Shown: positions 109 through 44,662, counted from the stretch's first letter. The stretch is DNA of 64,000 bases from Candidatus Nealsonbacteria bacterium (GCA_026016225.1 CP061210.1:450000-513999); one strand, 5' to 3'. The notes: generated by a model from the sequence alone, not told the origin. Numbers and translations are program-made.

Positions 109-1302
109 GTGATATTAAATTTTTCAAAAAAAGAACCAAGAGAATCTTTGGTGGGAATAAGTGAGATGGGAGTTGTAATTCCCGAATTTTTTATTGGAGC
201 TGAAAAAATGGCTGAAGAACAACAGCTTTCTTTAGAATATGTAAATGGAGGATTAGGATTAATGCAAGCCAGAATACCCTATAATGTTTCCCTTCAAGAC
301 CTCATAATTAAAGCTGTTCAGAAAATAAAGTATCAAGACGCAGAGAGGTTTATTATTGCCACTGAGTCAGATTACGATTTATCAAAAGCCGTAATGGCAA
401 TAAAATCAATTAATAAGGGTTTAAAACTTACAATACTTCCCTTTCAATTAAAATTTGCCTGTTTAGCTGGAGTTCAAGCTCTACTGCTGGCTTCAGAGTA
501 TGCCATATCTCATAATAAACCTGCTATTGTCATAGTGGCAGACCGTTCCATTTACGGAGATAGGAAAGCAGAAGTAACTCAGGGAACTGGAGTAATAGCA
601 TTAAGAATAGAAAAAAATCCTGAGTTATTAGCTTTGGATTTTAGAAATTATGGTCAATACGTAGAAGATATAGATGATTTTAAAATTCCGGTAAATACAG
701 CACCCTTCCCTGAAGTTGACGGTCCCTTAACAAAACCAGCTTATATAAAATGCGTCATTAAGGCATATGAGGATTACAAAAAAAAGAATCTTCAATTTAA
801 AACACCATTAGAAAAAATTAATTATATTGTAATGCATACTCCTTTTCCCAAAATGGTTGTTTGGACTTCAGCTGTCCTTTGGCGTTATGAAAAATACAGA
901 GAAAAAGAATTTATCAAGTTATTGGAAGAATCTGTAGCTAATCCGAGTTTATTTAAAAAGTTTAAAAAACTACTTGATGAAATAAGAACTCTTCCAGAAT
1001 TTCAAAAATTCTTTCAGCAAAAGGTTAAGCCCGGTTTAAAATACAATTCTTATATTGGAAATTGCTACAATGCTTCTATTTTTATTTCCTTACTACCAGT
1101 CTTGGAACAAATCAAGGAGAACCAACAGGTCTTTATTATGGGTTATGGTTCAGGTTCGGGTTCTCTTACAATAATGGCAAAGGCAATAAAACAGGGATTT
1201 CAAAGCGACTTAAAAGAGCAAATAAAAAAAGGTAAAGAGCTTACCGTTGCTCAATACCGAGAGTGGAGAAATAATGTAATAAGAGAAATTAGAAGCCCTT
1301 AA
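109..1302 (+). CDS. HMG-CoA synthase-like condensing enzyme (thiolase fold)
   Basis: 397-aa ORF with GTG start. N-terminal VGI...P motif, Cys in LKFACLAGVQAL, His in MHTPFPKM and GNCYNASIF resemble the HMG-CoA synthase family. Ends 8 nt before the next gene. Confidence 0.65.
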   Translation: MILNFSKKEPRESLVGISEMGVVIPEFFIGAEKMAEEQQLSLEYVNGGLGLMQARIPYNVSLQDLIIKAVQKIKYQDAERFIIATESDYDLSKAVMAIKSINKGLKLTILPFQLKFACLAGVQALLLASEYAISHNKPAIVIVADRSIYGDRKAEVTQGTGVIALRIEKNPELLALDFRNYGQYVEDIDDFKIPVNTAPFPEVDGPLTKPAYIKCVIKAYEDYKKKNLQFKTPLEKINYIVMHTPFPKMVVWTSAVLWRYEKYREKEFIKLLEESVANPSLFKKFKKLLDEIRTLPEFQKFFQQKVKPGLKYNSYIGNCYNASIFISLLPVLEQIKENQQVFIMGYGSGSGSLTIMAKAIKQGFQSDLKEQIKKGKELTVAQYREWRNNVIREIRSP

Positions 1303-1310
1303 TTTAAGCT

Positions 1311-2327
1311 ATGAAAGAAGCTTATCTTTACAAAAAATTAGATAACAAAAGAGTGCAATGTAAGAATTGCGCCCATTATTGTGTTATTGAACCCGGAAAA
1401 AGAGGAATTTGCGGTGTCAGAGAAAATATTGATGGAAAATTATATGCCTTAAATTATAAAAAAGCAATAGCAGTAAATATTGATCCGATTGAGAAAAAAC
1501 CTTTTTTCCATTTTTTGCCAGGCAGTCATTCCTTATCCATTGCAACGGTTGGATGCAATTTGAGGTGTTTGAGTTGTCAGAATTGGGATATTTCCCAGGG
1601 TTTTAAAGAAAAAAAAGAAATTCCGGGTCAAAATTTAACTCCAAAAGATATTGTTAAATTGGCAATCAAAAATAATTTACCAAACATCTCTTATACTTAT
1701 ACTGAACCCACCATATTTTTAGAATATGCTTTAGACACTATGAAATTGGCAAAAAAAGAGGGAATAAAAAATACCTGGGTGAGCAATGGGTTTATGACAG
1801 AAGAATCAGCAAAATTAGTTATCCCCCATCTTGATGCCAACAATATTGATATTAAAAGTTTTTCTGATGAATTTTATAAGAAATACTGCGGAGCTAAACT
1901 CAAACCTGTTTTAGAAACAGCAAAACTAATGAAAAAATCTGGAGTTTGGGTAGAAATTACAACATTGGTTATTCCTACCTTGAGCGACTCTGAGCAAATG
2001 TTTAAAGAAATTGCCAAATTCATTAAAACCGAGTTAGGACCTGAAACACCCTGGCATATAACTCAATTCTCAGGAGCTATTTCCTGGAAACTTCAACATC
2101 TGCCCGAAACCCCTGTTAAAACCTTAGAGAAAGCTTATAATATCGGTAAAGAAGCAGGTTTAAGATACGTTTATACCGGAAATATCCCGGGTTTGCCGTC
2201 TGAAGATACAATTTGTCCCAAATGCAAAGCTTTAGCTATTGATAGAAGAGGTTATATTATTAAACGATACGATAAAAATGGTAAATGCCCTGAGTGCGGA
2301 GAAGATTTAAATTTAATTTTAAAATAA
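1311..2327 (+). CDS. amrS: AmmeMemoRadiSam system radical SAM enzyme
   Basis: GCNLRCLSCQNW (CxxxCxxC radical SAM cluster) and C-terminal CPKC...CPEC pair. Clustered with Memo/LigB-like and AMMECR1 genes. Confidence 0.8.
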   Translation: MKEAYLYKKLDNKRVQCKNCAHYCVIEPGKRGICGVRENIDGKLYALNYKKAIAVNIDPIEKKPFFHFLPGSHSLSIATVGCNLRCLSCQNWDISQGFKEKKEIPGQNLTPKDIVKLAIKNNLPNISYTYTEPTIFLEYALDTMKLAKKEGIKNTWVSNGFMTEESAKLVIPHLDANNIDIKSFSDEFYKKYCGAKLKPVLETAKLMKKSGVWVEITTLVIPTLSDSEQMFKEIAKFIKTELGPETPWHITQFSGAISWKLQHLPETPVKTLEKAYNIGKEAGLRYVYTGNIPGLPSEDTICPKCKALAIDRRGYIIKRYDKNGKCPECGEDLNLILK

Positions 2328-2328
2328 A

Positions 2329-2943
2329 ATGTCTAAAATAGTTTTTGCAACTTTTGCTCCTCATCCTCCAATACTTCTTCCTTCTGTTGGTTCTGAACAA
2401 GACCGCCTTAAGCTTAAAAAAACTATTCAAAGTTTGGAAACCTTAGGAGAAAAGCTGAAAGAAAAGGCGCCTGATGTAATTTTAATTTCTTCTCCTCATC
2501 CTGATTGGGGATTTAACGTTCCTTTGTTTTTTTTAGCTAAAAATTTCAGGGGTAAAATAAAAACCTATTTAATGGGAGTAAGAGAACCTGAGTTTTATTT
2601 TAAAGAAGGGAAAAAAGTCTACCAAAGTCTTGAAAAAGGTAAAAAATATGCTTTAATTGCTTCAGGTGACCTCTCCCATTGTTTAAAAGAAGAAGGACCT
2701 TACGGTTTTAATCCACAAGGTCCCAAATTTGATAAAGCCTTAATTGAATATTTGAAAAAAAAGGATATTGATAATTTTTTAAAACTAAATGAATATTTTC
2801 CCGAAGCCGGAGAGTGCGGTCTTCGTTCTTTTTGTTTCTTGTTGGGAATTTTAGAGGCTTCAAGCATCAATTGGAAACCAGAAATCTTATCCTATGAAGG
2901 ACCTTTTGGTGTAGGTTATTTAGTAGCCAATTTTAATCTATGA
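2329..2943 (+). CDS. Memo/LigB-superfamily (class III extradiol dioxygenase-like) protein, probable protein-B equivalent of the AmmeMemoRadiSam system
   Basis: FAPHPPILLP near the N-terminus, SSPHPD and ASGDLSHCL motifs. Starts 2 nt after the amrS stop and overlaps the next ORF by 4 nt. Confidence 0.55.
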   Translation: MSKIVFATFAPHPPILLPSVGSEQDRLKLKKTIQSLETLGEKLKEKAPDVILISSPHPDWGFNVPLFFLAKNFRGKIKTYLMGVREPEFYFKEGKKVYQSLEKGKKYALIASGDLSHCLKEEGPYGFNPQGPKFDKALIEYLKKKDIDNFLKLNEYFPEAGECGLRSFCFLLGILEASSINWKPEILSYEGPFGVGYLVANFNL

Positions 2944-4307
2944 AAAACTTAAATTTTAAAACAGAAACTGATGTTTTAAGTTTTCTTAAAAAGAATGAAA
3001 ATAATATTCGATTTGTTAGGATAATCTTCCCTGATGTTTTAGGAAGAGAAATGAGCTTTTGCATTCCCTCAGAAAAAATGAAATCTGCTTTTTTGCAAGG
3101 AGTAGGATTTGATGGAAGTTCAGTAGAAGGCTTTGCCAGGGTTGAAGAGTCAGATTTGATTATTGTACCTGCCCCTGAAACCTTCAGGGTTTTGCCCTGG
3201 GGTTATGAGTTTCAAGATGTGGGGTGGAAGGAGGCTGTTGTTTTTGGTGATATTTTTACATCAAAAGGAAATCGCTTTCAAGGAGATTCTAGGTATGTTT
3301 TAAAGAAAAGCTTAGAAAAAACAAAAAAATTTGGCAACCTTTACGTAGGTCCTGAACTTGAATTTTTTATTTTTGAAAATGAAAAACAACCAAAATTATT
3401 AGACCATGGAGGTTATTTTTATGGGGGGAAATTGGGAGAAATTAGAAAAATTGTTCAAATTTATCTTCAAGAAATGGGAATTAAAGCTGAGTGCGACCAT
3501 CATGAAGTAGCTCCAAGTCAGCACGAAATAAATTTAAGATATAGTGATGCTCTAAGTGTGGCTGACTCAATAGTTTTAGCCAAATATGTAATAAAAAGAG
3601 TGGCTCGAAATTTTGGCTTTTTCGCCTCTTTTATGCCAAAACCAATCGCCAGAATTAATGGTTCCGGGATGCATCTCCATTTATCTTTGTGGGAAAAAGA
3701 CAAAAATTTATTCTTTAAAGACAAAAAAGAACCCTTATCTAATTTAGCTAAAAAATATCTAACAGGATTAATCAAGTATGGCAGAGAAACTCAATTAGTT
3801 TTGAATCAATGGGTTAATTCTTACAAAAGATTAATTCCAGGTTATGAAGCTCCTGTATATTTGGCTTGGGGAAGAAAAAATAGGTCAGCCTATATTAGAG
3901 TTCCTGAGACTCACCTGGCAAAAGCAAACACTTCCACCAGAATTGAAGTTAGGTCTCCTGACCCTGCCTGTAATATCTATTTAGCTTTAGCTATTATCCA
4001 GGCAGCGGGGGTTCAAGGAGTTAAAGAAGATTTGAAGCTTTTACCTCCCCAAGAAAAGGACATTTTTGAAATGAAAGAAAGCGAGATGAAGAAAAGAAAG
4101 ATTAAAATTTTAGCTAAAAATTTAAACGAAGCTTTAAGGCATTTTAAGAATAGTAAATTAGTTAGAGAGACCCTTGGCGAGCATTTATTTAAGAAAATAA
4201 TCCAAAACAAGAAAATCGAATGGGAAAGATACAAAAAAGCAGCTGGTAAAAAATTTGAAAAGTCAGTTAGTCCGTATGAAATAAAAGAGTATTTACCGGT
4301 ACTTTAA
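2940..4307 (+). CDS. Glutamine synthetase family protein (ATP-dependent amide ligase)
   Basis: 455 aa. FDGSSVEGF, GPELEFF, HHEVAPSQHEIN and NGSGMHLHLSLW are classic glutamine synthetase motifs. ATGA overlap gives translational coupling with the upstream gene. Confidence 0.8.
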   Translation: MKNLNFKTETDVLSFLKKNENNIRFVRIIFPDVLGREMSFCIPSEKMKSAFLQGVGFDGSSVEGFARVEESDLIIVPAPETFRVLPWGYEFQDVGWKEAVVFGDIFTSKGNRFQGDSRYVLKKSLEKTKKFGNLYVGPELEFFIFENEKQPKLLDHGGYFYGGKLGEIRKIVQIYLQEMGIKAECDHHEVAPSQHEINLRYSDALSVADSIVLAKYVIKRVARNFGFFASFMPKPIARINGSGMHLHLSLWEKDKNLFFKDKKEPLSNLAKKYLTGLIKYGRETQLVLNQWVNSYKRLIPGYEAPVYLAWGRKNRSAYIRVPETHLAKANTSTRIEVRSPDPACNIYLALAIIQAAGVQGVKEDLKLLPPQEKDIFEMKESEMKKRKIKILAKNLNEALRHFKNSKLVRETLGEHLFKKIIQNKKIEWERYKKAAGKKFEKSVSPYEIKEYLPVL

Positions 4308-4317
4308 TTAATTCTTT

Positions 4318-4626
4318 ATGAAGTTTACGGTAAAAAATAAGAAAAAACATAATATTACAACTTTAATCAGAGCGATTGGTTATCGTTATTTAGGTGAAGA
4401 TGAAGATAGAAAAGAAATAAAACTTGTCAGACCTTTAGAAATAGGCGGCTATCCAAGATTTCATCTTTTTTTGAAGACAGAACCTAAAAATCAAGAGTTT
4501 CTTTTTAATCTGCACTTAGATCAAAGGAAGCCGGTTTATAAAGGCGCTCCGGCTCATGCGGCTGACTATGAAGGAGAAGCTGTAGAAAGAGAGGCAGAAA
4601 GAATTAAACAAATTTTAGAAAAGTAA
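4318..4626 (+). CDS. Hypothetical protein (102 aa) inside the AmmeMemoRadiSam operon
   Basis: ORF only. Co-oriented with 10-20 nt gaps to its neighbours. No recognisable motif. Confidence 0.45.
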   Translation: MKFTVKNKKKHNITTLIRAIGYRYLGEDEDRKEIKLVRPLEIGGYPRFHLFLKTEPKNQEFLFNLHLDQRKPVYKGAPAHAADYEGEAVEREAERIKQILEK

Positions 4627-4646
4627 TGTGCTAAAAATTAAAATAA

Positions 4647-5324
4647 ATGTTTAAAGATTATAAGTGGCTTTCACCAAAATTTAAAAGAACGCAGGCAATA
4701 ATAAAACCAATGCTGAAAATGCTTCAGGAAGAAGGAAACAATCTGAAGGTTCTAGATATAGGATGTGGGAATGGCGTGGTTTCAGAATTGATAGTTAAAA
4801 TGGGAAATGAAGTTTGGGGAATTGATGAAAATGAAGAAGCACTTAAAGAAGCTAAAAAGAGAGAAGTGAGAGTTTTTAAAGGAAACTTGGAGAAAAATCT
4901 TCCTTTTGAGAATAAATCTTTTGATGTGCTTTGGTGTTTGCGGGTCTTAGAACATATTTTTCACACAGAGCACTTTCTAAAAGAATGCCACCGTATTTTA
5001 AAACCTAAAGGCGTATTGGTTATTACCGCTGACAACATAGTTTCTCTACCTAATCGAATAAGGGTATTTTTCGGCCTTTATCCCCTTAGGGTTGCTCCCA
5101 GTGAAAATTATCCACGGTTTACCGACCACGTAAGATGTTTTACAAAATCCACTTTTAAAAACATTTTAAAAAATTCAGGTTTTAAATTAGAAAAAATCAC
5201 ATCAGACTTTGTTTGTTTTAATTTTGGTCAATATAGTTTTCCCCCTCGTTCAGAATTTTTGGGGAAAATACTTCCATCATTAGGCTCGACATTAATTGCC
5301 AAAGCGAGAAAAACTGAGATATGA
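4647..5324 (+). CDS. Class I SAM-dependent methyltransferase
   Basis: VLDIGCGNG (motif I), FDVLWCLRVLEHI and LKPKGVLVI motifs. Confidence 0.8.
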   Translation: MFKDYKWLSPKFKRTQAIIKPMLKMLQEEGNNLKVLDIGCGNGVVSELIVKMGNEVWGIDENEEALKEAKKREVRVFKGNLEKNLPFENKSFDVLWCLRVLEHIFHTEHFLKECHRILKPKGVLVITADNIVSLPNRIRVFFGLYPLRVAPSENYPRFTDHVRCFTKSTFKNILKNSGFKLEKITSDFVCFNFGQYSFPPRSEFLGKILPSLGSTLIAKARKTEI

Positions 5325-5884
5325 ATGATTACATTTCACTTGCAAAAACAGCAGTTGAAAACTATATAAAAGAGAAAAAAGTAATTTCACCCCCCGAAGA
5401 TTTACCAAGGGAATTTTTTGAGATAAAATCTGGCGTTTTTGTAACTATTGAGAAAGACGGAAAATTAAGGGGTTGTATTGGAACTTATTTAGCGACCAAA
5501 GAGAATATTGCCAGAGAGATTATTTCAAATGCTATTGCTGCTGCCATCGAGGATTATAGGTTTGGTTCCACTCGGGAAGAAGAACTTCCCTATCTTTCTT
5601 ACACTGTTTATATTCTAAACGAACCTGAACAAGTTAAAGATATTAAAGAATTAGATACTAAAAAATATGGTATAATTGTAAAAACCATTCCTATTGTAGA
5701 TGTAGATAAAACAGATGTAGTCTTTAATGGCCATTTACCTCATAAAACAGGACTTTTACTTCCTGATTTGGAAGGAGTAAACACCATAGAAAAACAAATT
5801 TCAATTGCCTGCCAAAAAGCAGGAATTAATCCTCAAAAAGAAAAAATAATCATCTACCGATTTATTGTAAAAAAGTATCAATAG
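5321..5884 (+). CDS. amrA: AMMECR1 domain protein (AmmeMemoRadiSam system protein A)
   Basis: LRGCIGTY motif diagnostic of AMMECR1. Overlaps the methyltransferase gene by 4 nt. Confidence 0.8.
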   Translation: MNDYISLAKTAVENYIKEKKVISPPEDLPREFFEIKSGVFVTIEKDGKLRGCIGTYLATKENIAREIISNAIAAAIEDYRFGSTREEELPYLSYTVYILNEPEQVKDIKELDTKKYGIIVKTIPIVDVDKTDVVFNGHLPHKTGLLLPDLEGVNTIEKQISIACQKAGINPQKEKIIIYRFIVKKYQ

Positions 5885-5893
5885 TTTGGAATT

Positions 5894-5934
5894 AAAAAAA
5901 GCGGCTTCAGACCTCTCAAAAAAGCCGCTTTTTT
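5894..5934. terminator. Bidirectional rho-independent terminator
   Basis: aaaaaagcggctt...aagccgctttttt: GC stem flanked by an A-run and a T-run, between convergent genes. Confidence 0.7.
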
Positions 5935-5950
5935 CTCAATTTTCTTTACT

Positions 5951-6250
5951 TTACAATTTTTCCAATAATTCTTGAGAAAAACTTTTCATCTTTTCAAGTT
6001 CTCTTATTCCTTTTTTTGTTGTGCTAAAAGCAGGTTTTCCCTTAAACCTTTCTTTTTTAATGTATCCCTGAGTTCTGAGAAGATATAATACTCTTTTTGT
6101 TAATAACTTGCCAGGCAAAAAGCCAAATTTTTCAAAAATCAAACTTCTAATTTCTTCATTTGTAATTTCTTTTTCTTTTCCCAGGGTTAGAATATAAATC
6201 CAGAGATTATTTTCAGTATTTGATTTTTTAAATCTCTCAAATGGTAACAT
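5951..6250 (-). CDS. PadR-like winged-helix transcriptional regulator
   Basis: 99 aa. NLWIYILTL...YLLRTQGYIKK pattern. Paralogue of 7416..7718, with which it shares MLPxERxxKSNTxxNLW. Confidence 0.6.
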   Translation of the reverse strand: MLPFERFKKSNTENNLWIYILTLGKEKEITNEEIRSLIFEKFGFLPGKLLTKRVLYLLRTQGYIKKERFKGKPAFSTTKKGIRELEKMKSFSQELLEKL

Positions 6251-6256
6251 AAATTT

Positions 6257-7360
6257 CTATTTTTCTCTTTTTCCTAAAATGAAATCTTCAACCATTTCTC
6301 TTGCTTTTTCGTCTGTAAATTGAATCGGTGGTGATTTCATAAAATAAGCTGAAGCTGAAATTAAAGAACCTCCTATATTTCTATCTAAGGCAATCCTTAA
6401 TAATCTAATAGCATCAATCACGCACCCTCCAGAGTTTGGAGAATCTTCAACAGAAAGTCTTAATTCAACTTCAACCGGCATATTACCGAACTTTCTTCCT
6501 TCAATTCTGATAAAACAAACTTTATTATCTTTTAACCAGGGAACATAATCTGAAGGACCCACATGTAAGTTGTCATAACTTAATCTTTTTGAAAGCTGAG
6601 ATTCAACACTTTCTGTTTTTGAGATTTTTTTTGATTTAAGGCGTGAGCGAGAAAGCATATTTAAAAAGTCAGTATTTCCTCCTACGTTTAGCTGATAAGA
6701 TTTATCTATTTTGACTCCCCTTTCGGAAAAAAGATGGCTCAATATCCGATGAATAATAGTAGCTCCTACCTGAGACTTAATATCATCTCCGATACAAGGT
6801 AGATTTTTCTTTTTGAACTTTTCTGCCCAACTTTTATTTGAAACTATGAAAACCGGCATACAGTTTAAGAAAGCGCACCCGGTTTTTAAAGCTGCTTTGG
6901 CATAAAATTCTGTTGCTTTTTGAGAGCCAACAGGACAATAATTTATTAAGATTTCAGCTCCTGACTTTTTTAATTCTTTTACAACGTCTACAGGTTTTTC
7001 TTTTGATACGGCAAACCTTTTTTCTTCAGGATAATTTTTTAAGTGTTTAGCTACTCCGTCTAAAACAGGACCCATTTTTACTTTTGCCTTCAAATTTGGT
7101 ATCTTAGAATTAAAGACTTTTGTACAATTAGGTTTGGCAAAGATTGCTTTTGAAATATCTTTTCCAACCTTTCTCTTATCAATATCAAAAGCAATTACAG
7201 GTTTTATATCAGACACTCTGTATTTGTTAATAAGATTGTGCATTAAACCGGGTATTAATTCATCGTCAGTTTTTACGTTTTTATAGTAAAAAATACCCTG
7301 GATTAGAGATGAGGCACAATTCCCCAGTCCTACAATAGCAATTTTGATTCCTTTTTTCAT
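6257..7360 (-). CDS. myo-Inositol-1-phosphate synthase
   Basis: 367 aa. N-terminal Rossmann motif IAIVGLGNCASSLIQG plus GDDIKSQVGATI and SPNSGG motifs typical of archaeal/bacterial MIPS. Confidence 0.75.
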   Translation of the reverse strand: MKKGIKIAIVGLGNCASSLIQGIFYYKNVKTDDELIPGLMHNLINKYRVSDIKPVIAFDIDKRKVGKDISKAIFAKPNCTKVFNSKIPNLKAKVKMGPVLDGVAKHLKNYPEEKRFAVSKEKPVDVVKELKKSGAEILINYCPVGSQKATEFYAKAALKTGCAFLNCMPVFIVSNKSWAEKFKKKNLPCIGDDIKSQVGATIIHRILSHLFSERGVKIDKSYQLNVGGNTDFLNMLSRSRLKSKKISKTESVESQLSKRLSYDNLHVGPSDYVPWLKDNKVCFIRIEGRKFGNMPVEVELRLSVEDSPNSGGCVIDAIRLLRIALDRNIGGSLISASAYFMKSPPIQFTDEKAREMVEDFILGKREK

Positions 7361-7415: not shown

Positions 7416-7718
7416 ATGTTGCCAATGGAACGACTTCAAAAATCAAATACCAAGGAGAATTTATGGCTCTATATTCTTTCTCTGCTTAAAAAGAGGAAGA
7501 TTTACGGTTGGGAAATCCCCACTCTCATTAAAAAAAACTTTAATTTTAAACCAGGTAGAATTACTCCCTACAGAGTACTCTATAGATTAGAAAAAGAAGG
7601 TTTGGTTAAAAGCAAAATGGAAGAAAGAAGAAGAATTTATCAAATTACAAAAAAGGGGGAAGAAGAATTGAAACGAGCTAAAGGATTTTACAAAGAAGTT
7701 TTGAAAAAATTAAAATGA
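7416..7718 (+). CDS. PadR-like winged-helix transcriptional regulator
   Basis: 100 aa. Paralogue of 5951..6250, divergently placed from the MIPS gene. Confidence 0.6.
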   Translation: MLPMERLQKSNTKENLWLYILSLLKKRKIYGWEIPTLIKKNFNFKPGRITPYRVLYRLEKEGLVKSKMEERRRIYQITKKGEEELKRAKGFYKEVLKKLK

Positions 7719-25610: not shown

Positions 25611-26462
25611 TTATAAATTTACATAACGAACACTAATTCCCGCTTCTTTTAACACACTTATTCCATCAGTAGTAGAGACTTCTTCTAATAAAATTACATT
25701 TTCTATTCCACTTTGGACAATCAATTTTGAACAAATATCACACGGTGCAGCATTAAGATACATATCAGCGCCTCTTGAAGAGGTGCCACCAGTAGCTACT
25801 AAATTACTCAAAGCTTGCATTTCAGCACAAATTATGCCTTTATTCCCCATGGAAATTATGTTAGAATTTTTAACTATTAAACAACCTGCTCCTTCAGGAG
25901 AATGTTCAGCTACTAATTGAACAATCGTCATATAAAACTTATCTTTTTCTTTAATCTGTTTTTGATACTCTGTAGTTCCCTCTTTAATTTCAAATAGACC
26001 GGTAGAACCAAAACCTCCTGCCCCCCTAAGGGTTTCTGGAAGATCTTCAGATTCTTCTAATACAGGAATTTTAACTTCAGAGAAAATTAGCTGAGCAACT
26101 CTCATACTTTCTTCTACTATAAAAGGTTTCTTACCCCGGTTCCTTAAGAGAACCCCTGCCTCTCCCCTGAAATCTGGATCAATGGTCCCAGGAGAATTAG
26201 ATAATTCAATATCATATTTGCATGCCAAACCACTACGGGGCCGCACTTGAGCTTCATATGTCCAAGGTATTGCAAATTGGACCCCTATTCCAATTAAAGC
26301 GCTTTCTCCAGGTTTTATTGTTATTGGGAGTTTTCCAGTTATCTCTTTGGTAATTTTATTTAACACTATTGAAGCATAAGCATCGAAACCTACTGCATTA
26401 TACGTGGCCCTTTCCGGTATACGAGCATTTTTTCTAATCTTTCTTACTTTAACATTATTCAT
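25611..26462 (-). CDS. dUTPase fused to a dCMP/cytidine deaminase-like zinc domain
   Basis: dUTPase motifs VGFDAYA, RPRSGL, GTIDPDFRGE and RGAGGFGSTG. C-terminal CAEMQAL...PCDICSKLIVQSGI deaminase motifs. Confidence 0.75.
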   Translation of the reverse strand: MNNVKVRKIRKNARIPERATYNAVGFDAYASIVLNKITKEITGKLPITIKPGESALIGIGVQFAIPWTYEAQVRPRSGLACKYDIELSNSPGTIDPDFRGEAGVLLRNRGKKPFIVEESMRVAQLIFSEVKIPVLEESEDLPETLRGAGGFGSTGLFEIKEGTTEYQKQIKEKDKFYMTIVQLVAEHSPEGAGCLIVKNSNIISMGNKGIICAEMQALSNLVATGGTSSRGADMYLNAAPCDICSKLIVQSGIENVILLEEVSTTDGISVLKEAGISVRYVNL

Positions 26463-35286: not shown

Positions 35287-36276
35287 TTAAGATGCTAACT
35301 GACCACAAGCAGCTTTAATATCTTGACCAAAACGATAACGCTGGGTAACCTGAACACCCCCTTTTTCCAAAATTTCTTTGAACTTTTTCATACGCCAAGA
35401 TGAGGATGGTTTAAAAACTCCTGTTGGATTGTAGGAAATTAGGTTTACAAAATAAAGAGGTTTTTTCATTAACTTGCTTAATTTTTGGGCGTAGACGTCA
35501 GAATCATTTAAGTCTTTCATCATCAGATATTCAAACATAACTTTACGTTTGGTTTTTCCAATATAATCATCAACTACCTCAAGCACATCAGCAATAGGAT
35601 ATTTTTTATTTATTGGCATTATTTTTGAACGCAAATCATCATCAGGAGCATGAAGAGAGATAGCTAAATTTACCTGAAGTTTTTCTTCAGCTAATTTCTT
35701 AATGCCTTCTAAAATCCCAACGGTTGAGATAGAAATATGTCTGGCTCCCAAATTAAACCCTTCTTTGTCATTTAAAACCCTTATAGCGCTAATAACATTC
35801 TCATAATTCAGAAAAGGTTCTCCCATTCCCATAAAAACAATATTGGTAACTTTTTCTCCTTTTTTCTTTAGGTGACGGGCAAAAAATAGAACTTGTTCCA
35901 CAATCTCAGAAATTTCAAGGTTTCTTTTGAAACCAGTTTGTCCGGTAGCGCAAAATGAACAACTCAAGGCACAACCCACCTGTGAAGAAATACAAACAGT
36001 ATTCCGACCATCTTTATGTTTCATTAAAACAGACTCAATCTTTAGTCCATCTTTTAATATAATGAGAGTTTTTGCAGTCTTTTTGTCTTTAGAAAAAAGA
36101 GTTTGAGCATTAATTTTAATGGGACATATTTTGTTCAGATTCTCTCGCAACAACAAAGGCAAAATATTCGCTTCTCTCCAGTCTTCAATCAAATCAACAA
36201 ATAAGGCTTTTTTGGCTTGTTTTAGACGATAGGGATGTTCCTTATTAAGAAGGTTTTCAAGTTGAGTTAAATCCAT
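35287..36276 (-). CDS. rlmN: 23S rRNA/tRNA (adenine-C2)-methyltransferase RlmN (radical SAM)
   Basis: GCALSCSFCATG cluster motif, MGMGEPFLNY, and C-terminal GQDIKAACGQL. Confidence 0.85.
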   Translation of the reverse strand: MDLTQLENLLNKEHPYRLKQAKKALFVDLIEDWREANILPLLLRENLNKICPIKINAQTLFSKDKKTAKTLIILKDGLKIESVLMKHKDGRNTVCISSQVGCALSCSFCATGQTGFKRNLEISEIVEQVLFFARHLKKKGEKVTNIVFMGMGEPFLNYENVISAIRVLNDKEGFNLGARHISISTVGILEGIKKLAEEKLQVNLAISLHAPDDDLRSKIMPINKKYPIADVLEVVDDYIGKTKRKVMFEYLMMKDLNDSDVYAQKLSKLMKKPLYFVNLISYNPTGVFKPSSSWRMKKFKEILEKGGVQVTQRYRFGQDIKAACGQLAS

Positions 36277-38894: not shown

Positions 38895-39674
38895 TTAAAC
38901 ATCCATTTTTTCTTCAGCAACTTGTTTAATCTTCTGTTGAATTTTCTCTTTAAATTCCTTACCAACTGAATCAAATAGTGTTAAAAGCTGTTCGAAGGTA
39001 TCTTCGCCACCGAGAAAATTCCAATATTCTTCACCAATTAAAAATTCTTTTCCTCTTTCTAAAACTCCTTGTTCTGTAAATCTTTCGTATGGCTTTGGAT
39101 GATAGGGATTATAGGGGAAAGATAGGAAAACTTTTACTGGTTTTCTGCGCCGTGCTATCCATTCTAATAATTTTGTCTTTGATTTTGTAAAAACATCGAT
39201 ATTAGGTTTTACGGTTTTAATTTCAAAATAATGTTCTACGCCCCCTTTAAGTATATAAAGGTCAGCTATTCTACCTTCTTTCTGAGCCTTACCATCTCTT
39301 GGAGAAGCACTTAAAACTTCTTTCATTTCTCTTTCACTATTTACCCTTCTTTCCTTATTCCTTAATTCGCGGACTATATTACCTATAATGGACTTTTGCT
39401 CTTTTGAAAGTACGCCACCAATATCATATTTAGTAAAACATTCTTTGGCAGAATCAGAAGCAATAATTTTTGAAACGTCTTCATAAATAGACATTCCTAA
39501 CGTCGTAGCTAAAGAATGAATAAAGGAATAAGCAGCAACTTTTTCGCTGTCTTGAATAAGACGAGTAAGAAATGGCATTGAGGTAGTTTCTCGGCTATAT
39601 CTTTTTAACTTACTCTCAATTTTTTGCTGTAATAATCCTTTAATCTGTTGTTTTTGATTGCTTGATAATGGCAT
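38895..39674 (-). CDS. Probable type II restriction endonuclease (TdeIII-like by recollection)
   Basis: Starts 5 nt after the methyltransferase gene. FIHSLATTLGMSIYE and YFEIKTVKPN (ExK-like) motifs. The family assignment needs an HMM check. Confidence 0.45.
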   Translation of the reverse strand: MPLSSNQKQQIKGLLQQKIESKLKRYSRETTSMPFLTRLIQDSEKVAAYSFIHSLATTLGMSIYEDVSKIIASDSAKECFTKYDIGGVLSKEQKSIIGNIVRELRNKERRVNSEREMKEVLSASPRDGKAQKEGRIADLYILKGGVEHYFEIKTVKPNIDVFTKSKTKLLEWIARRRKPVKVFLSFPYNPYHPKPYERFTEQGVLERGKEFLIGEEYWNFLGGEDTFEQLLTLFDSVGKEFKEKIQQKIKQVAEEKMDV

Positions 39675-39679
39675 AGGAT

Positions 39680-40855
39680 CTAGTGATTTTTAATAAAATA
39701 ATAAATGCTTTCGCTAAACCTTATGTTGTCACGCTCTGTTCTCATAAGAACAGGGCGGTGATATATTTTTTCAATACTGTAATTACAAAGTTTAGCGATG
39801 TCCGGATAGAGATTATCTCTGTCATTAACAACGACAAATATTTTTGCTTTTGGTTTCAACCACTGATTAATATTTTTAAAAACTTCAATAATATCCCTTT
39901 TATACTCTTCTTTGGCTTCCTGACTTTTGCCTTTTGATGCAGGGCCAATTTCTTTTACACAATTATTATCAAACCCAAAAAGCTCATAAGCATAACGGTG
40001 TTGGTCGTGATAATCGATTAAGCCAATATAGGGAGGAGAGGTAAAAATGCCGTCAAATTTACCACCCTTATAATCCGGAAGCTCATTTAGTTTTATTTCC
40101 CTTGAGTCTCCTTGAATAATTTTCATTTTAGCGTTAGTTCTTAACTCATCAAATTCTTTAATACGCCTTATAGTACCTAAACTGTAACGATTTATGAATT
40201 TTAGAGCTTCATCAACTGGCCGACATGTCCTCTTGTGTTTTATACACCAATAGGGCTTTTTTATTGGCTTTTTAGGTCTTGCCAAATCATAATGAGGTAT
40301 TTGACGAGCACTCCGAGCCGAACGACTTAATATTATTTTTAGGATATCTTGGTTTTTATAATTTTTAATTTGTTCTCGATAAAACAAAATCTCCTGCAAT
40401 GCTCTTTTAGAGAACCATGTATTGAAATAATTATTATCTATCGTAAACTCTTTGTATCCCTTTTTAAACAAGGCAGGTTGTTTTGAATGTCGATACCAAT
40501 TACTAAAATCTTTTGTTTTAGATAGAATATCCTTAATCTCAGCTTCTACTTCTGGAATGTTATATTTTTTTGTTTTAATTTCAGAAATTAAACAATTAAA
40601 AAGGGAAATCTCTATACCTGCTGAATTCATACCAAGGATGTTAGATTCAATAAGAGCAGTTCCTGACCCCAAAAAGGGATCTAATATCCAATCTCCTTTT
40701 TTGAAGTAATGTTTTAAAAATGCCTCTACGAGTTGCGGTATAAATTTACCTAAATAAGGATGTAAACGATGGACATGTTTTGTTCTTTTATATTCTTGCA
40801 CATTGGCAAAAGATAAATCTATCCCGTTTAATGATGTTAGAGATTTGTTTGACAT
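39680..40855 (-). CDS. DNA methyltransferase (N6-adenine/N4-cytosine type)
   Basis: DPFLGSGT (SAM motif I) in the N-terminal part and FTSPPY (catalytic motif IV) in the C-terminal part. Confidence 0.75.
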   Translation of the reverse strand: MSNKSLTSLNGIDLSFANVQEYKRTKHVHRLHPYLGKFIPQLVEAFLKHYFKKGDWILDPFLGSGTALIESNILGMNSAGIEISLFNCLISEIKTKKYNIPEVEAEIKDILSKTKDFSNWYRHSKQPALFKKGYKEFTIDNNYFNTWFSKRALQEILFYREQIKNYKNQDILKIILSRSARSARQIPHYDLARPKKPIKKPYWCIKHKRTCRPVDEALKFINRYSLGTIRRIKEFDELRTNAKMKIIQGDSREIKLNELPDYKGGKFDGIFTSPPYIGLIDYHDQHRYAYELFGFDNNCVKEIGPASKGKSQEAKEEYKRDIIEVFKNINQWLKPKAKIFVVVNDRDNLYPDIAKLCNYSIEKIYHRPVLMRTERDNIRFSESIYYFIKNH

Positions 40856-43777: not shown

Positions 43778-44662
43778 TTATTCGCTCTTTAATGCTTCTA
43801 AAATTTTTTTAAATTCTTTATATCGGGTTCTTAATGTTACTTCAGTTACGTTAGCGGCCTTAGCTAATTCCCGTTGTGTTATCTTTTCACCATATTGTTT
43901 GCAAGCGAGATATAGGGCAGCAGCTACTAATCCAGTAGGTTTTTTTCCCAGGGCGAGACCACCTTCTTCAGCCGTTTTTAAGAGCTGGCCAGCCAGAATT
44001 TGACTTCTTCCAGAAATAGCAAGCTTTTCAGAAATTCCTGGAATATATTTTAGTGGATCTAACGGTGCAATTTTTATATCAAGCACATTGAGTAAAAGTT
44101 TACAATAGCGATTAATAGTTTTTTTGCTGATAGAAGTTATCTCTGAAATTTCTTCAATAGTTTTTGGAATTTCCTTTACTCTATAGGCAATATAAATAAC
44201 AGCAGCAGCTAAATGTTCAAAACTTCTACCTTGAGTAGGAAGTTTTTTTAAAGCTTTATATAAAATCACTGCTGATTCTAATTTAACGGGCCATTCAACA
44301 TTGAGCTGGCTTAATAAAGAATGAAGTCTATCCATTGCTACATTAATTCTGTGTTTTTCTGGACCAAGGAGGCAACTGTGCCATTTTCTCATTCGATTTA
44401 TTACAGGTTGTGTATGTGAGGGAATTTTGTTTCCTCTAAAATCAAGATTTTTATGATCTATATAGCCTCCTGGGATTCCGTAATAAGTTATCGCTCCTAC
44501 AGGATATTTCGGCTCTCCATATTTTCGTTTTACACCTCCTGTCTGGTCTAATTCTTTATCCCTGATTATAAGTCCGCATTCACAACACCATTCACCTCTT
44601 GTCAGGTCGTAACTGAAATTACTATTTCCACATTCCGGGCATACTTCAACCTCTTCTTTCAT
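43778..44662 (-). CDS. Transcription factor IIB / archaeal TFB homologue
   Basis: N-terminal zinc ribbon CPECG...CCECG. Two cyclin-like repeats (GRSFEHLAAAVIYIAYR...TINRYCKLL and GKKPTGLVAAALYLACK...TLRTRYKEF). Confidence 0.8.
   Translation of the reverse strand: MKEEVEVCPECGNSNFSYDLTRGEWCCECGLIIRDKELDQTGGVKRKYGEPKYPVGAITYYGIPGGYIDHKNLDFRGNKIPSHTQPVINRMRKWHSCLLGPEKHRINVAMDRLHSLLSQLNVEWPVKLESAVILYKALKKLPTQGRSFEHLAAAVIYIAYRVKEIPKTIEEISEITSISKKTINRYCKLLLNVLDIKIAPLDPLKYIPGISEKLAISGRSQILAGQLLKTAEEGGLALGKKPTGLVAAALYLACKQYGEKITQRELAKAANVTEVTLRTRYKEFKKILEALKSE

What the first reader, a model, noticed from the sequence alone, without database searches (positions are those of the whole stretch)
109..5884. 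Expanded AmmeMemoRadiSam operon with embedded glutamine-synthetase-like ligase, SAM methyltransferase, a 102-aa orphan and an HMG-CoA-synthase-like enzyme
Seen: seven co-oriented genes with 2-20-nt gaps or 4-nt overlaps, in the order condensing enzyme, radical SAM (CNLRCLSCQNW), Memo/LigB-like, GS-like, 102-aa ORF, methyltransferase, AMMECR1 (LRGCIGTY). They are closed by a bidirectional terminator. Established: the AMMECR1/Memo/radical-SAM trio is a conserved system whose substrate is unknown. Inference: the extra ATP-dependent amide ligase, methyltransferase and small protein may be further steps, or the small protein may be the substrate, so this locus could give clues to the system's chemistry.
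Basis: partly seen in the sequence, partly recalled or inferred. Interest (0 to 1): 0.55.

Follow-up and report, generated by a model that had tools for sequence, protein, structure and literature searches.

The report
AMMECR1 gene cluster with passenger genes
Seven tightly packed genes in a tiny-genome (Patescibacteria) bacterium hold a known but still unexplained three-enzyme system, with ordinary housekeeping genes strung between its parts; the supposed 'orphan' small protein belongs to a large uncharacterised family that is kept even in relatives where the three-enzyme system is missing from this site.

Summary
Window 109-5884 carries seven co-oriented, tightly spaced genes closed by a bidirectional terminator.

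The reading as one 'expanded system' is only partly supported.
- **Known system:** only the radical SAM enzyme (TIGR04337), the AMMECR1 protein (TIGR04335) and a 204-aa LigB-type protein form it. The third component is LigB-type, not Memo-type.
- **102-aa ORF ('SM'):** it is not an orphan. It defines an unannotated Patescibacterial family (at least 219 species, 524 clusters at 50% identity) with invariant His, Asp, Gln, Tyr, Glu and Arg residues. SM lies between LigB and AMMECR1 in about half of related loci.
- **Synteny control:** unrelated genes (LigT, an HHH_8 protein, a Mur ligase, EF-P) are conserved around SM just as often.
- **Independence:** the trio is missing from the locus in at least 8 separate lineages while SM stays with all its invariant residues. 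Trios without SM are also common (20 of 36).
- **Glutamine synthetase:** a complete GS I enzyme, present in 3 of 36 related trios and differing between near-identical loci.
- **Methyltransferase:** found only in the closest relatives, apart from one weak match (L118).
- **HMG-CoA synthase:** belongs to a family that sits in full mevalonate operons elsewhere.

Verdict: a known system inside a conserved syntenic block, with passenger genes. The small-protein family is the only new element.

The parts
109..1302 (+). HMG-CoA synthase (mvaS-type) from a distinct Patescibacterial subfamily. The true start may be the GTG at 151.
   Evidence: PF08540 scores 75.6 bits; TIGR01835 scores 153 against a cutoff of 360. 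In the printed alignment to S. aureus MvaS 1tvz the motifs line up: ATES, FACLAG, MHTPF and GNCYNAS; I read these as the Glu/Cys/His/Asn catalytic positions from my knowledge of MvaS. The family has 94 clusters. Members at 48-50% identity sit in mevalonate or thiolase operons (L169, L172, L173).
1311..2327 (+). AmmeMemoRadiSam-system radical SAM enzyme (AmrS), related to PflA-type activases, with a C-terminal Cys-rich ribbon.
   Evidence: TIGR04337 scores 337 bits against a cutoff of 220; PF04055 scores 80.8 bits; the CNLRCLSC motif is present.
2329..2943 (+). Short (204-aa) LigB-type class III extradiol-dioxygenase-like protein that takes the place of the Memo-type component.
   Evidence: PF02900 scores 92.3 bits. 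Memo scores 21.4 against a cutoff of 27 and TIGR04336 scores 16.1 against 26. The best solved relative is TK2203, 5hee. APHPP, SPHPDW and SGDLSH His motifs are present. It follows rSAM in 39 of 77 rSAM-anchored loci.
2940..4307 (+). Glutamine synthetase type I with complete catalytic motifs; a lineage-specific passenger in this gene string.
   Evidence: Gln-synt_C scores 342 bits and TIGR00653 scores 420 against a cutoff of 429. It scores 395 bits to solved GS 8ufj, 8s59 and 8tfb, with the motifs GPELEFF, HHEVAPSQHEI, NGSGMH, NSYKRL and RIE.R.PD. It is present in 3 of 36 rSAM..AMMECR1 spans. The near-identical loci L095 and L096 differ by its presence.
4318..4626 (+). SM: member of a new, conserved Patescibacterial small-protein family (about 100 aa, beta-alpha-beta4-alpha). 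Invariant residues are P46 R47 F48 H49, H66 D68 Q69, Y74, H80, Y84, E92, R95 and I96.
   Evidence: No Pfam or NCBIfam hit. 116 homologous clusters, 219 GTDB species and 524 clusters at 50% identity, with the 150 best listed all 91-167 aa and no added domain seen in the ten longer ones read. Alignment A1. AF2 model with pLDDT 85. The best PDB fold match has E = 2e-3 and TM about 0.5.
4647..5324 (+). Class I SAM-dependent methyltransferase with no specific family; a passenger found mainly in the closest relatives.
   Evidence: Methyltransf_11 scores 82.4 bits; the best equivalog, UbiG, scores 76 against a cutoff of 103. Orthologues occur only in L001-L007. It is in 0 of 36 rSAM..AMMECR1 spans. 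One 28%-identity relative follows SM in L118.
5321..5884 (+). AmmeMemoRadiSam-system protein A (AMMECR1 domain) with RGCIG and DYRF motifs.
   Evidence: TIGR04335 scores 111.8 bits against a cutoff of 99; PF01871 scores 136 bits. Solved relatives are PH0010 (1vaj) and MM0484 (1zq7). The motifs are as defined in PMC2034487.
5895..5934 (.). Bidirectional intrinsic terminator between the AMMECR1 gene and the convergent 99-aa gene.
   Evidence: Sequence. Folds at -16.4 kcal/mol, z = -3.5.

Best explanation
The seven genes are very probably one transcription unit in a streamlined Nealsonbacteria-type (Patescibacteria) genome of about 0.65 Mb. They are not one pathway.

**The known system.** Three genes (radical SAM AmrS, the LigB-type protein and AMMECR1) form the known AMMECR1 / ring-opening-dioxygenase-like / radical-SAM system, in its LigB-type form. 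Its chemistry is inferred, not shown:
- AmrS cleaves SAM to a 5'-deoxyadenosyl radical that activates a still unknown substrate.
- The LigB-type His/His/carboxylate metal site and the AMMECR1 cysteine (RGCIG) carry out further steps.
- The published predictions are an RNA or nucleotide base modification or an isoprenoid modification.

**The chromosomal slot.** The system sits in a conserved slot (Mur ligase <- LigT <- | ... | -> HHH_8 -> Fmt -> EF-P, or INO1/PadR). This slot accumulates co-directional genes.

**SM.** SM is an older, independently selected resident of that slot. It is most likely a small metal- or ligand-binding protein, given three invariant His plus Asp, Gln, Tyr, Glu and Arg on a two-layer alpha+beta fold. 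Its function does not require the trio.

**Passengers.** The GS I, the mevalonate-pathway HMG-CoA synthase and the class I methyltransferase are housekeeping or lineage-specific passengers. They are co-transcribed because of genome compaction.
For: **Family calls.**

**Source and strain variation.** Two nearly identical loci lie in complete genomes of 654 and 695 kb, CP179892.1 and CP179891.1. Even close strains differ: L001 has a GNAT inserted before AMMECR1, and L004 has SM + MT in another context.

**Synteny baseline.** Around SM, the counts out of 72 are: LigT 44, HHH_8 44, Mur ligase 36, EF-P 34, AMMECR1 35, rSAM 32, LigB 31.

**All four states occupy the same slot.** These are trio+SM, trio only (L087, L091, L092, L099, L100, L120, L156, L164), SM only (L011, L015, L051, L060, L073, L082, L084) and HMGS+SM (L008, L009, L012, L031, L166-L168, L170, L171).

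**Independent events.** There are at least 8 independent trio gain or loss events with SM retained. L008 and L009 (HMGS-SM, no trio) are sister to the window lineage.

**SM conservation.** Invariant residues are equally conserved in 64 trio-linked and 19 trio-free loci.

**Tight spacing is not diagnostic.** 4-nt overlaps link SM to whatever gene is adjacent, including the HHH_8 protein.

**Heterogeneous inserted genes.** By Pfam: RlmN-type radical SAM, PPP-type and YfcE-type phosphoesterases, HD, CYTH, TIM barrel, GATase-like. By eye from the sequences: threonine synthase and shikimate kinase.

**Passenger enzymes.** GS is complete and patchy (3 of 36; L095 against L096). The HMGS family sits in full mevalonate operons. 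MT is absent from 36 of 36 related trio spans.
Against: - SM lies between LigB and AMMECR1, inside the system and not beside it. This holds in about half of SM loci (19 and 21 of 72) and in 16 of 36 related trios, over SM divergence down to about 45% identity.
- Mirror-tree partial correlations of SM with rSAM (0.33) and AMMECR1 (0.38) are above zero, although LigB gives 0.01.
- I could not scan whole genomes. 'Trio-free' means absent within 4-10 kb of SM, not proven absent from the genome.
- Whether this GS is the only GS in the genome is unknown.
- No expression data exist, so the single-operon statement rests on spacing, one terminator and no convincing internal signals.
Confidence: 0.6

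Rival explanations
1. SM is a genuine fourth, lineage-specific component of the LigB-type AMMECR1 system. It could be a metal-delivering or substrate-presenting subunit of the LigB-type protein, analogous in role (not in fold) to the small alpha subunit of LigAB dioxygenases. In lineages that lost the trio it has a second function.
For: - SM directly follows LigB in 19 of 72 loci, 9 of 18 in the first clustering with a 4-nt overlap. It directly precedes AMMECR1 in 21 of 72.
- 16 of 36 related trios carry SM between LigB and AMMECR1.
- The LigB-type protein is short, 204 aa against a 269-position profile.
- SM has three invariant His and one invariant Asp.
- Mirror-tree partial r is 0.33 with rSAM and 0.38 with AMMECR1.
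Against: - 20 of 36 trios lack SM, several in the identical slot with LigB abutting AMMECR1 (L087, L111, L159, L164).
- SM persists with an unchanged invariant set where the trio is absent.
- Partial r with LigB itself is 0.01.
- Unrelated genes sit at the same junctions, and equally tight overlaps link SM to the HHH_8 protein.
Confidence: 0.2
2. SM works with isoprenoid or lipid metabolism, not with the trio. It would be a mini helix-grip protein that binds or processes a hydrophobic intermediate and is partnered with the HMG-CoA synthase.
For: - HMGS-SM direct adjacency occurs in at least 10 lineages without the trio between them (L008, L009, L012, L031, L068, L166, L167, L168, L170, L171).
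- INO1 and CDP-alcohol phosphatidyltransferase lie nearby.
- The weak fold matches are helix-grip, START or Bet v 1-like, BamC-N and polyketide cyclases.
- Longer family members end in a W/F-rich amphipathic tail suggestive of membrane association.
Against: - HMGS is near SM in only 7 of 72 SM-anchored loci, all from one subclade.
- Mevalonate operons holding the same HMGS family lack SM (L169, L172, L173).
- Fold matches are weak (TM 0.3-0.5, E >= 2e-3).
- The adjacency is again explained by the shared slot next to LigT.
Confidence: 0.1
3. One reading: all seven genes encode steps of one expanded AmmeMemoRadiSam pathway (condensation, radical chemistry, ring chemistry, ATP-dependent amidation, methylation), with SM as carrier or substrate.
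For: - Tight co-orientation and a single terminator.
- GS recurs directly after LigB in several loci (L018, L096, L119 and the window group; in L088 one gene lies between).
- A distant methyltransferase follows SM in L118.
- Published context analyses link the trio to isoprenoid modification (Burroughs et al. 2019, recalled from memory; the paper was not held).
Against: - GS is in 3 of 36 spans, MT in 0 of 36 and HMGS in 1 of 36.
- GS is present or absent between near-identical loci (L095 against L096).
- The window's sister lineage keeps HMGS-SM without the trio.
- GS is a canonical GS I, and the HMGS family sits in canonical mevalonate operons.
- Loop residues of SM are not relaxed in trio-free loci, which argues against SM as a dedicated substrate.
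Confidence: 0.05

Closest known systems
AmmeMemoRadiSam system (NCBIfam TIGR04335 protein A / TIGR04336 protein B / TIGR04337 radical SAM); the AMMECR1 + ring-opening dioxygenase + radical SAM neighbourhood of Balaji & Aravind 2007 (PMC2034487)
   Same: Proteins A and S pass the curated cutoffs. The RGCIG and DxRF motifs and the CX3CX2C motif are present. All three genes are clustered and co-oriented. The function is unknown, as in the literature searched.
   Different: - Component B is a 204-aa LigB/TK2203-like protein that fails the Memo-type models.
- B and A are separated here by three genes (GS, SM, MT), and in relatives by SM and other inserted genes.
Glutamine synthetase type I (GlnA, TIGR00653; solved structures 8ufj, 8s59, 8tfb, 4lnf)
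   Same: Full length, 395 bits to solved GS, all metal, ATP and glutamate motifs present.
   Different: It scores 9 bits under the equivalog cutoff. Its position inside the AMMECR1 cluster is unusual but patchy, in 3 of 36 related clusters.
Bacterial HMG-CoA synthase MvaS (TIGR01835; 1tvz, 1x9e)
   Same: The motifs holding the MvaS Glu/Cys/His/Asn catalytic residues align. Family members lie next to HMG-CoA reductase, GHMP kinases and thiolase.
   Different: It is divergent (about 30% identity or less, below the equivalog cutoffs). In the window's clade it has moved out of the mevalonate operon to the slot next to LigT and SM.
Helix-grip or KA1-like small alpha+beta domains (BamC N-terminal domain 2yh6, Chk1 KA1 5wi2, Flpp3 6pny)
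   Same: A two-layer beta-sheet plus long C-terminal helix of about 100 residues.
   Different: TM is only about 0.5 with 13-17% identity. None of these shares the invariant His/Asp/Gln/Tyr set. SM matches no sequence family.

Membership tests
AmmeMemoRadiSam system | Protein A: AMMECR1 domain reaching the TIGR04335 cutoff (99 bits) | tested here: met
   111.8 bits; PF01871 136 bits.
AmmeMemoRadiSam system | AMMECR1 catalytic motifs RGChG and DxRa (PMC2034487) | tested here: met
   LRGCIGT and EDYRF in the translation; motif definitions.
AmmeMemoRadiSam system | Radical SAM partner reaching the TIGR04337 cutoff (220 bits), with CX3CX2C | tested here: met
   337 bits; CNLRCLSC.
AmmeMemoRadiSam system | Protein B: Memo-family protein reaching TIGR04336 (26 bits) or PF01875 (27 bits) | tested here: not met
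   16.1 and 21.4 bits. The protein is LigB PF02900 at 92.3 bits and its nearest solved relative is TK2203, 5hee. The 2007 description of the neighbourhood names a 'ring-opening dioxygenase', so this is the LigB-type form.
AmmeMemoRadiSam system | The three genes are conserved neighbours across genomes | tested here: met
   rSAM is followed by LigB in 39 of 77 loci, and AMMECR1 lies within 8 kb in 36 of 77, many on truncated contigs.
AmmeMemoRadiSam system (expanded, as proposed) | GS, methyltransferase, HMGS and SM recur with the trio in other genomes | tested here: not met
   In 36 rSAM..AMMECR1 spans: GS 3, MT 0, HMGS 1, SM 16. SM recurs but is also retained without the trio.
Glutamine synthetase type I | TIGR00653 cutoff of 429 bits | tested here: not met
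   420.4 bits, a marginal miss. The catalytic-residue test is listed separately.
Glutamine synthetase type I | Complete metal, ATP and glutamate binding motifs | tested here: met
   Alignment to 8ufj shows GPELEFF, HHEVAPSQHEI, NGSGMHLH, NSYKRLIPGYEAP, NRSAYIRVP and RIEVRSPD.
HMG-CoA synthase | Equivalog cutoffs (TIGR01835 at 360 bits; PF01154 at 25 bits) | tested here: not met
   153 and 20.2 bits. PF08540 passes with 75.6 bits against a cutoff of 25.1.
HMG-CoA synthase | Glu/Cys/His catalytic triad and membership of mevalonate operons | tested here: met
   The ATES, FACLAG and MHTPF motifs align to 1tvz; the catalytic role of these positions is from my knowledge of MvaS. Homologues at 48-50% identity lie beside HMG-CoA reductase, GHMP kinases and thiolase. 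Presence of the rest of the pathway in this genome was not testable.
Class I SAM methyltransferase | Rossmann-type SAM-binding domain (PF08241) | tested here: met
   82.4 bits against a cutoff of 21.2. No equivalog is reached; UbiG scores 76 against 103.
SM small-protein family (new) | Any match to Pfam, NCBIfam or a solved structure | tested here: not met
   No significant hit (best Pfam E = 0.0016, in one member of 49). The best Foldseek PDB match has E = 2e-3 and TM about 0.5.

The most novel reading that the evidence does not exclude
The SM family is a real, lineage-specific partner of the AMMECR1 / LigB / radical-SAM system. It could be an accessory metal-binding subunit. Alternatively it could be the protein whose conserved flexible loop (Y74-G76-H80-Y84) is acted on by the PflA-like radical SAM enzyme. 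Either reading would give the first experimentally tractable handle on a system whose substrate has been unknown for about 20 years.
Probability: 0.15. Interest if true: 0.65.

Novelty: new variant of a known kind. Interest (0 to 1): 0.35.

Why it matters
The AMMECR1 / Memo(LigB) / radical-SAM system is widespread and has a human disease-linked homologue, yet no function for it turned up in the literature I searched. Any reliable extra partner would narrow the search for its substrate.

This analysis shows that most of the apparent 'extra steps' are passengers in a compacted genome. They should not be used to infer chemistry. It also gives a concrete caution: in Patescibacteria, 4-nt overlaps and conserved gene order also hold for plainly unrelated genes.

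The useful positive result is a large, unannotated, strongly conserved small-protein family (invariant PRFH...H.DQ...Y...H...Y...E..RI). About half of its members lie inside this system. It is cheap to test for metal content, binding partners and modification.

Tried and rejected
- **Pfam on SM.** All 49 SM members were scanned at E <= 10. Only scattered single hits appeared (CvfB_2nd, GrpB and others), which I treated as noise.
- **Search for SM fusions.** The exhaustive profile search listed its 150 best hits at 91-167 aa, and the ten longer ones I read carry only a disordered tail; no fusion to LigB, AMMECR1 or other domains was seen among them.
- **LigB homologue search.** It was meant to find LigB-AMMECR1 fusions, but the list was saturated by stand-alone homologues at 71% identity or more, so it was uninformative.
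- **Burroughs et al. 2019 (JBC).** The paper was not held. Its abstract is cited from memory only.
- **Exact-protein look-ups.** Look-ups of two other window genes, intended to annotate the rest of the window, found nothing. Pfam scans of 30 large ORFs were used instead and showed no mevalonate genes in the window.
- **Mirror-tree co-evolution.** SM against the trio, with LigT and HHH_8 as controls, was inconclusive.
- **SM as a PII-like or GS-regulatory protein.** This was prompted by L063 and L081, where another GS subtype lies three genes from SM. I rejected it because the fold differs and GS is near SM in only a handful of loci.
- **SM as a toxin-antitoxin or RiPP precursor.** I rejected this because SM has a fixed syntenic position, no partner antitoxin, a folded domain, and no relaxation of the loop in trio-free loci.
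- **Rfam scan.** Only two tRNAs were found in the window, with no riboswitch or leader near the cluster.

Full report
**1. What is there**

Window 109-5884 holds seven + strand ORFs separated by 1-20 nt or overlapping by 4 nt. The string is closed at about 5895-5934 by an A-tract / 13-bp stem / T-tract hairpin between convergent genes. The hairpin folds at -16.4 kcal/mol with z = -3.5.

The window is about 33% GC. It also encodes EF-P, DnaB, Pol III tau, a PBP and a Mur ligase. Nearly identical copies of the locus lie in two complete 'Candidatus Nealsonbacteria' (Patescibacteria) genomes of 654 and 695 kb, CP179892.1 and CP179891.1.

Profile searches gave the following.

| ORF | Assignment | Key scores |
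|---|---|---|
| ORF1 | HMG-CoA synthase-like | PF08540 75.6 bits; equivalogs not reached |
| ORF2 | AmmeMemoRadiSam radical SAM | TIGR04337 337 against cutoff 220 |
| ORF3 | LigB-type protein | PF02900 92 bits; fails Memo (21 against 27) and TIGR04336 (16 against 26) |
| ORF4 | Glutamine synthetase | Gln-synt_C 342 bits; TIGR00653 420 against 429 |
| ORF5 | No family | none |
| ORF6 | Class I methyltransferase | PF08241 82 bits |
| ORF7 | AmmeMemoRadiSam protein A | TIGR04335 111.8 against 99 |

The third system component is LigB-type, not Memo-type. The 'GS-like' gene is a true GS. The 'orphan' is not an orphan.

**2. The 102-aa protein (SM)**

*Distribution.*
- SM has 116 homologous 90%-identity clusters at 40-98% identity, almost all labelled Nealsonbacteria, Paceibacterota or Patescibacteria.
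- Relatives occur in 219 GTDB species.
- An exhaustive profile search finds 524 clusters at 50% identity. The 150 best listed are 91-167 aa, and the ten longer ones I read show no added domain.

*Conservation.* A 49-sequence alignment shows invariant M1, P46 R47 F48 H49, H66 D68 Q69, Y74, H80, Y84, E92, R95 and I96.

*Structure.*
- AF2 gives a confident beta-alpha-beta4-alpha model with pLDDT 85.
- The only poorly modelled stretch is residues 74-83. That loop nevertheless carries invariant Y74 and H80 and nearly invariant G76.
- Foldseek against PDB finds only weak helix-grip or KA1-like matches, with best E = 2e-3 and TM about 0.5.
- There are no Pfam or NCBIfam hits.
- Longer members add a disordered tail ending in a W/F-rich amphipathic motif.

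SM is thus a new, strongly constrained family. The invariant His/Asp/Gln/Tyr/Glu/Arg set suggests a metal or ligand site. This is inference.

**3. Neighbourhood survey from three anchors**

*(a) Anchored on SM (80 GTDB species loci; SM ORF called in 72).*
- The backbone is Mur ligase <- LigT <- | [HMGS] rSAM LigB SM AMMECR1 | -> HHH_8 -> Fmt -> EF-P, or INO1/PadR.
- SM's upstream neighbour is LigB in 19 loci, LigT (divergent) in 7, a PPP-type phosphatase in 5, HMGS in 5 and RlmN in 4.
- SM's downstream neighbour is AMMECR1 in 21 loci, HHH_8 in 8, INO1 in 3 and MT in 2.
- Within 8 kb of SM the counts are HHH_8 44, LigT 44, Mur ligase 36, AMMECR1 35, EF-P 34, rSAM 32, LigB 31, Fmt 26 and HMGS 7.

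*(b) Anchored on the radical SAM enzyme (80 metagenome loci at 63-81% identity).*
- Of 36 loci spanning rSAM to AMMECR1, 16 contain SM, 3 contain GS, none contains MT and 1 locus has HMGS.
- Trios without SM occupy the same LigT...HHH_8 slot (L087, L091, L092, L099, L100, L120, L156, L164).

*(c) Anchored on HMGS.*
- The family has 94 clusters at 97-41% identity. It then drops to 34% and 26% for the remaining HMG-CoA-synthase-domain hits.
- Five of eight contexts (51-62% identity) are LigT <- | HMGS SM | with no trio.
- The three most distant (48-50%) lie in mevalonate or thiolase operons. L172 holds thiolase, polyprenyl synthase, HMGS, HMG-CoA reductase, three GHMP kinases, UbiA and NUDIX. 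L173 holds HMGS and HMG-CoA reductase with GGR, UbiA and a CarS-like gene. L169 holds acetyl-CoA synthetase, HMGS and thiolase.

**4. Is adjacency evidence of function here?**

Several controls say it is weak evidence.
- Unrelated housekeeping genes are conserved around SM as often as the trio.
- 4-nt overlaps join SM to whichever gene is next, including the HHH_8 protein.
- The junctions LigB|SM|AMMECR1 hold a heterogeneous set of other genes: RlmN, PPP- and YfcE-type phosphoesterases, HD, CYTH, a xylose-isomerase-like TIM barrel, a GATase-like protein and a GNAT (Pfam), plus ORFs I read by eye as threonine synthase and shikimate kinase.
- On an NJ tree of LigT+SM+HHH_8 (47 loci), the 12 trio-free loci are scattered. 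This needs at least 8 gains or losses of the trio with SM retained. L008 and L009 (HMGS-SM, no trio) are sister to the window's lineage.
- SM's invariant residues, including the loop, are equally conserved in 64 trio-linked and 19 trio-free loci.
- A mirror-tree test was inconclusive. SM correlates with rSAM at 0.57, AMMECR1 at 0.59 and LigT at 0.58. Partial correlations are 0.33, 0.38 and, for LigB, 0.01.

**5. The 'extra enzymes'**

*GS.*
- It aligns over its full length to solved GS (395 bits to 8ufj, 8s59 and 8tfb) with every catalytic motif.
- It lies after LigB in the window group and in L018, L088, L096 and L119, directly except in L088, where one gene intervenes.
- It is absent from the nearest outgroups L006 and L007.
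- It differs between the near-identical loci L095 and L096.
- A different GS subtype, with a GAF-ANTAR regulator, sits in the same slot without any trio in L063 and L081.

*HMGS.* The motifs that hold the Glu/Cys/His/Asn catalytic residues of MvaS align to 1tvz. It belongs to a family with canonical mevalonate contexts.

*MT.* It has orthologues only in L001-L007. One 28%-identity relative follows SM in L118.

**6. Comparison with what is known**

- The AMMECR1 + radical SAM + ring-opening-dioxygenase neighbourhood, including fusions of AMMECR1 with the dioxygenase, was described in 2007. It was predicted to perform an RNA base modification through the conserved Cys (PMC2034487; also PMC4075521).
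- A later study (Burroughs et al. 2019, J Biol Chem 294:10211) was not held. From my memory of its abstract, it links the Memo clade to nucleotide-base and aliphatic isoprenoid modification.
- No paper in the held library reports an experimentally determined function.
- The locus is therefore a LigB-type member of a known system. What differs is the embedded SM family and the passenger genes.
- The nearby lipid-related genes (HMGS; INO1 and CDP-alcohol phosphatidyltransferase in relatives) fit the isoprenoid idea only loosely. They lie in separate transcription units or are clade-limited.

**7. Verdict**

- Best explanation (confidence 0.6): a known three-gene system sits in a conserved, insertion-tolerant chromosomal slot of a streamlined genome. 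It is co-transcribed with an independently selected small protein and with housekeeping passengers.
- Rivals: SM as a true fourth component (0.2), SM as a lipid or isoprenoid-related partner of HMGS (0.1), and a single seven-step pathway (0.05).
- Novelty: a new variant of a known kind, because of the SM family.
- Interest: 0.35. The 'expanded operon' clue to AMMECR1 chemistry largely dissolves. The SM family remains a cheap and concrete experimental lead.

Noticed in passing
window 43778-44662 (-): A 294-aa protein with two TFIIB repeats (PF00382, 112 bits) and an N-terminal CPEC...CCEC zinc ribbon, which makes it archaeal TFB-like. The genome is otherwise clearly bacterial.
   Followed up: partly
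L173:1-8305 and L172:262-12684: Patescibacterial mevalonate operons. L173 also carries CarS-like, geranylgeranyl reductase, UbiA and polyprenyl synthase genes, a gene set reminiscent of archaeal ether-lipid synthesis. A 2022 survey reported the mevalonate pathway only in Gracilibacteria among freshwater CPR (PMC9166423).
   Followed up: no
proteins P0175, P0192, P0195-P0197, P0211, P0214, P0229, P0240: Longer SM-family members (148-167 aa) have a low-complexity tail ending in a W/F-rich amphipathic motif (WWKRLFS, FFGKLLSVF, WWKFW). This suggests membrane targeting.
   Followed up: no
L004:2525-4242: A Logan contig carries SM (100% identical to the window's) + MT + a 226-aa polytopic membrane protein directly beside a T2SS-type ATPase, with no GS or trio. 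This is either a recent rearrangement or an assembly chimera. The same membrane protein follows MT or SM in L007 and L069.
   Followed up: partly
L001:11036-11500: In CP179892.1, whose proteins here are 97-100% identical to the window's, a GNAT acetyltransferase is inserted between the methyltransferase and AMMECR1. This shows how readily the string accepts insertions.
   Followed up: yes
L007, L014, L018, L036, L042, L095, L096, L119 (gene directly upstream of SM): A PPP/calcineurin-type metallophosphatase (PF00149, 77 bits) recurs immediately upstream of SM, often with a 4-nt overlap. It occurs in 16 loci in all.
   Followed up: partly
L063:10001-13220 and L081:9971-13407: LigT <- SM, TsaC/Sua5-like, GAF-ANTAR regulator, then a GS of another subtype (33% identical to the window's). 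All lie in the same chromosomal slot, without the trio.
   Followed up: partly
window 5951-6250 (-) and 7416-7718 (+): Two paralogous proteins of about 100 aa flank the inositol-1-phosphate synthase gene (6257-7360, -). One scores as PadR and the other has no Pfam hit. The INO1/PadR unit is a conserved neighbour of the cluster.
   Followed up: no
window 25611-26462 (-); 38895-40855 (-); 35287-36276 (-): A dUTPase-dCMP deaminase fusion, a TdeIII restriction enzyme with an N6/N4 DNA methylase, and a second, unrelated radical SAM protein.
   Followed up: no
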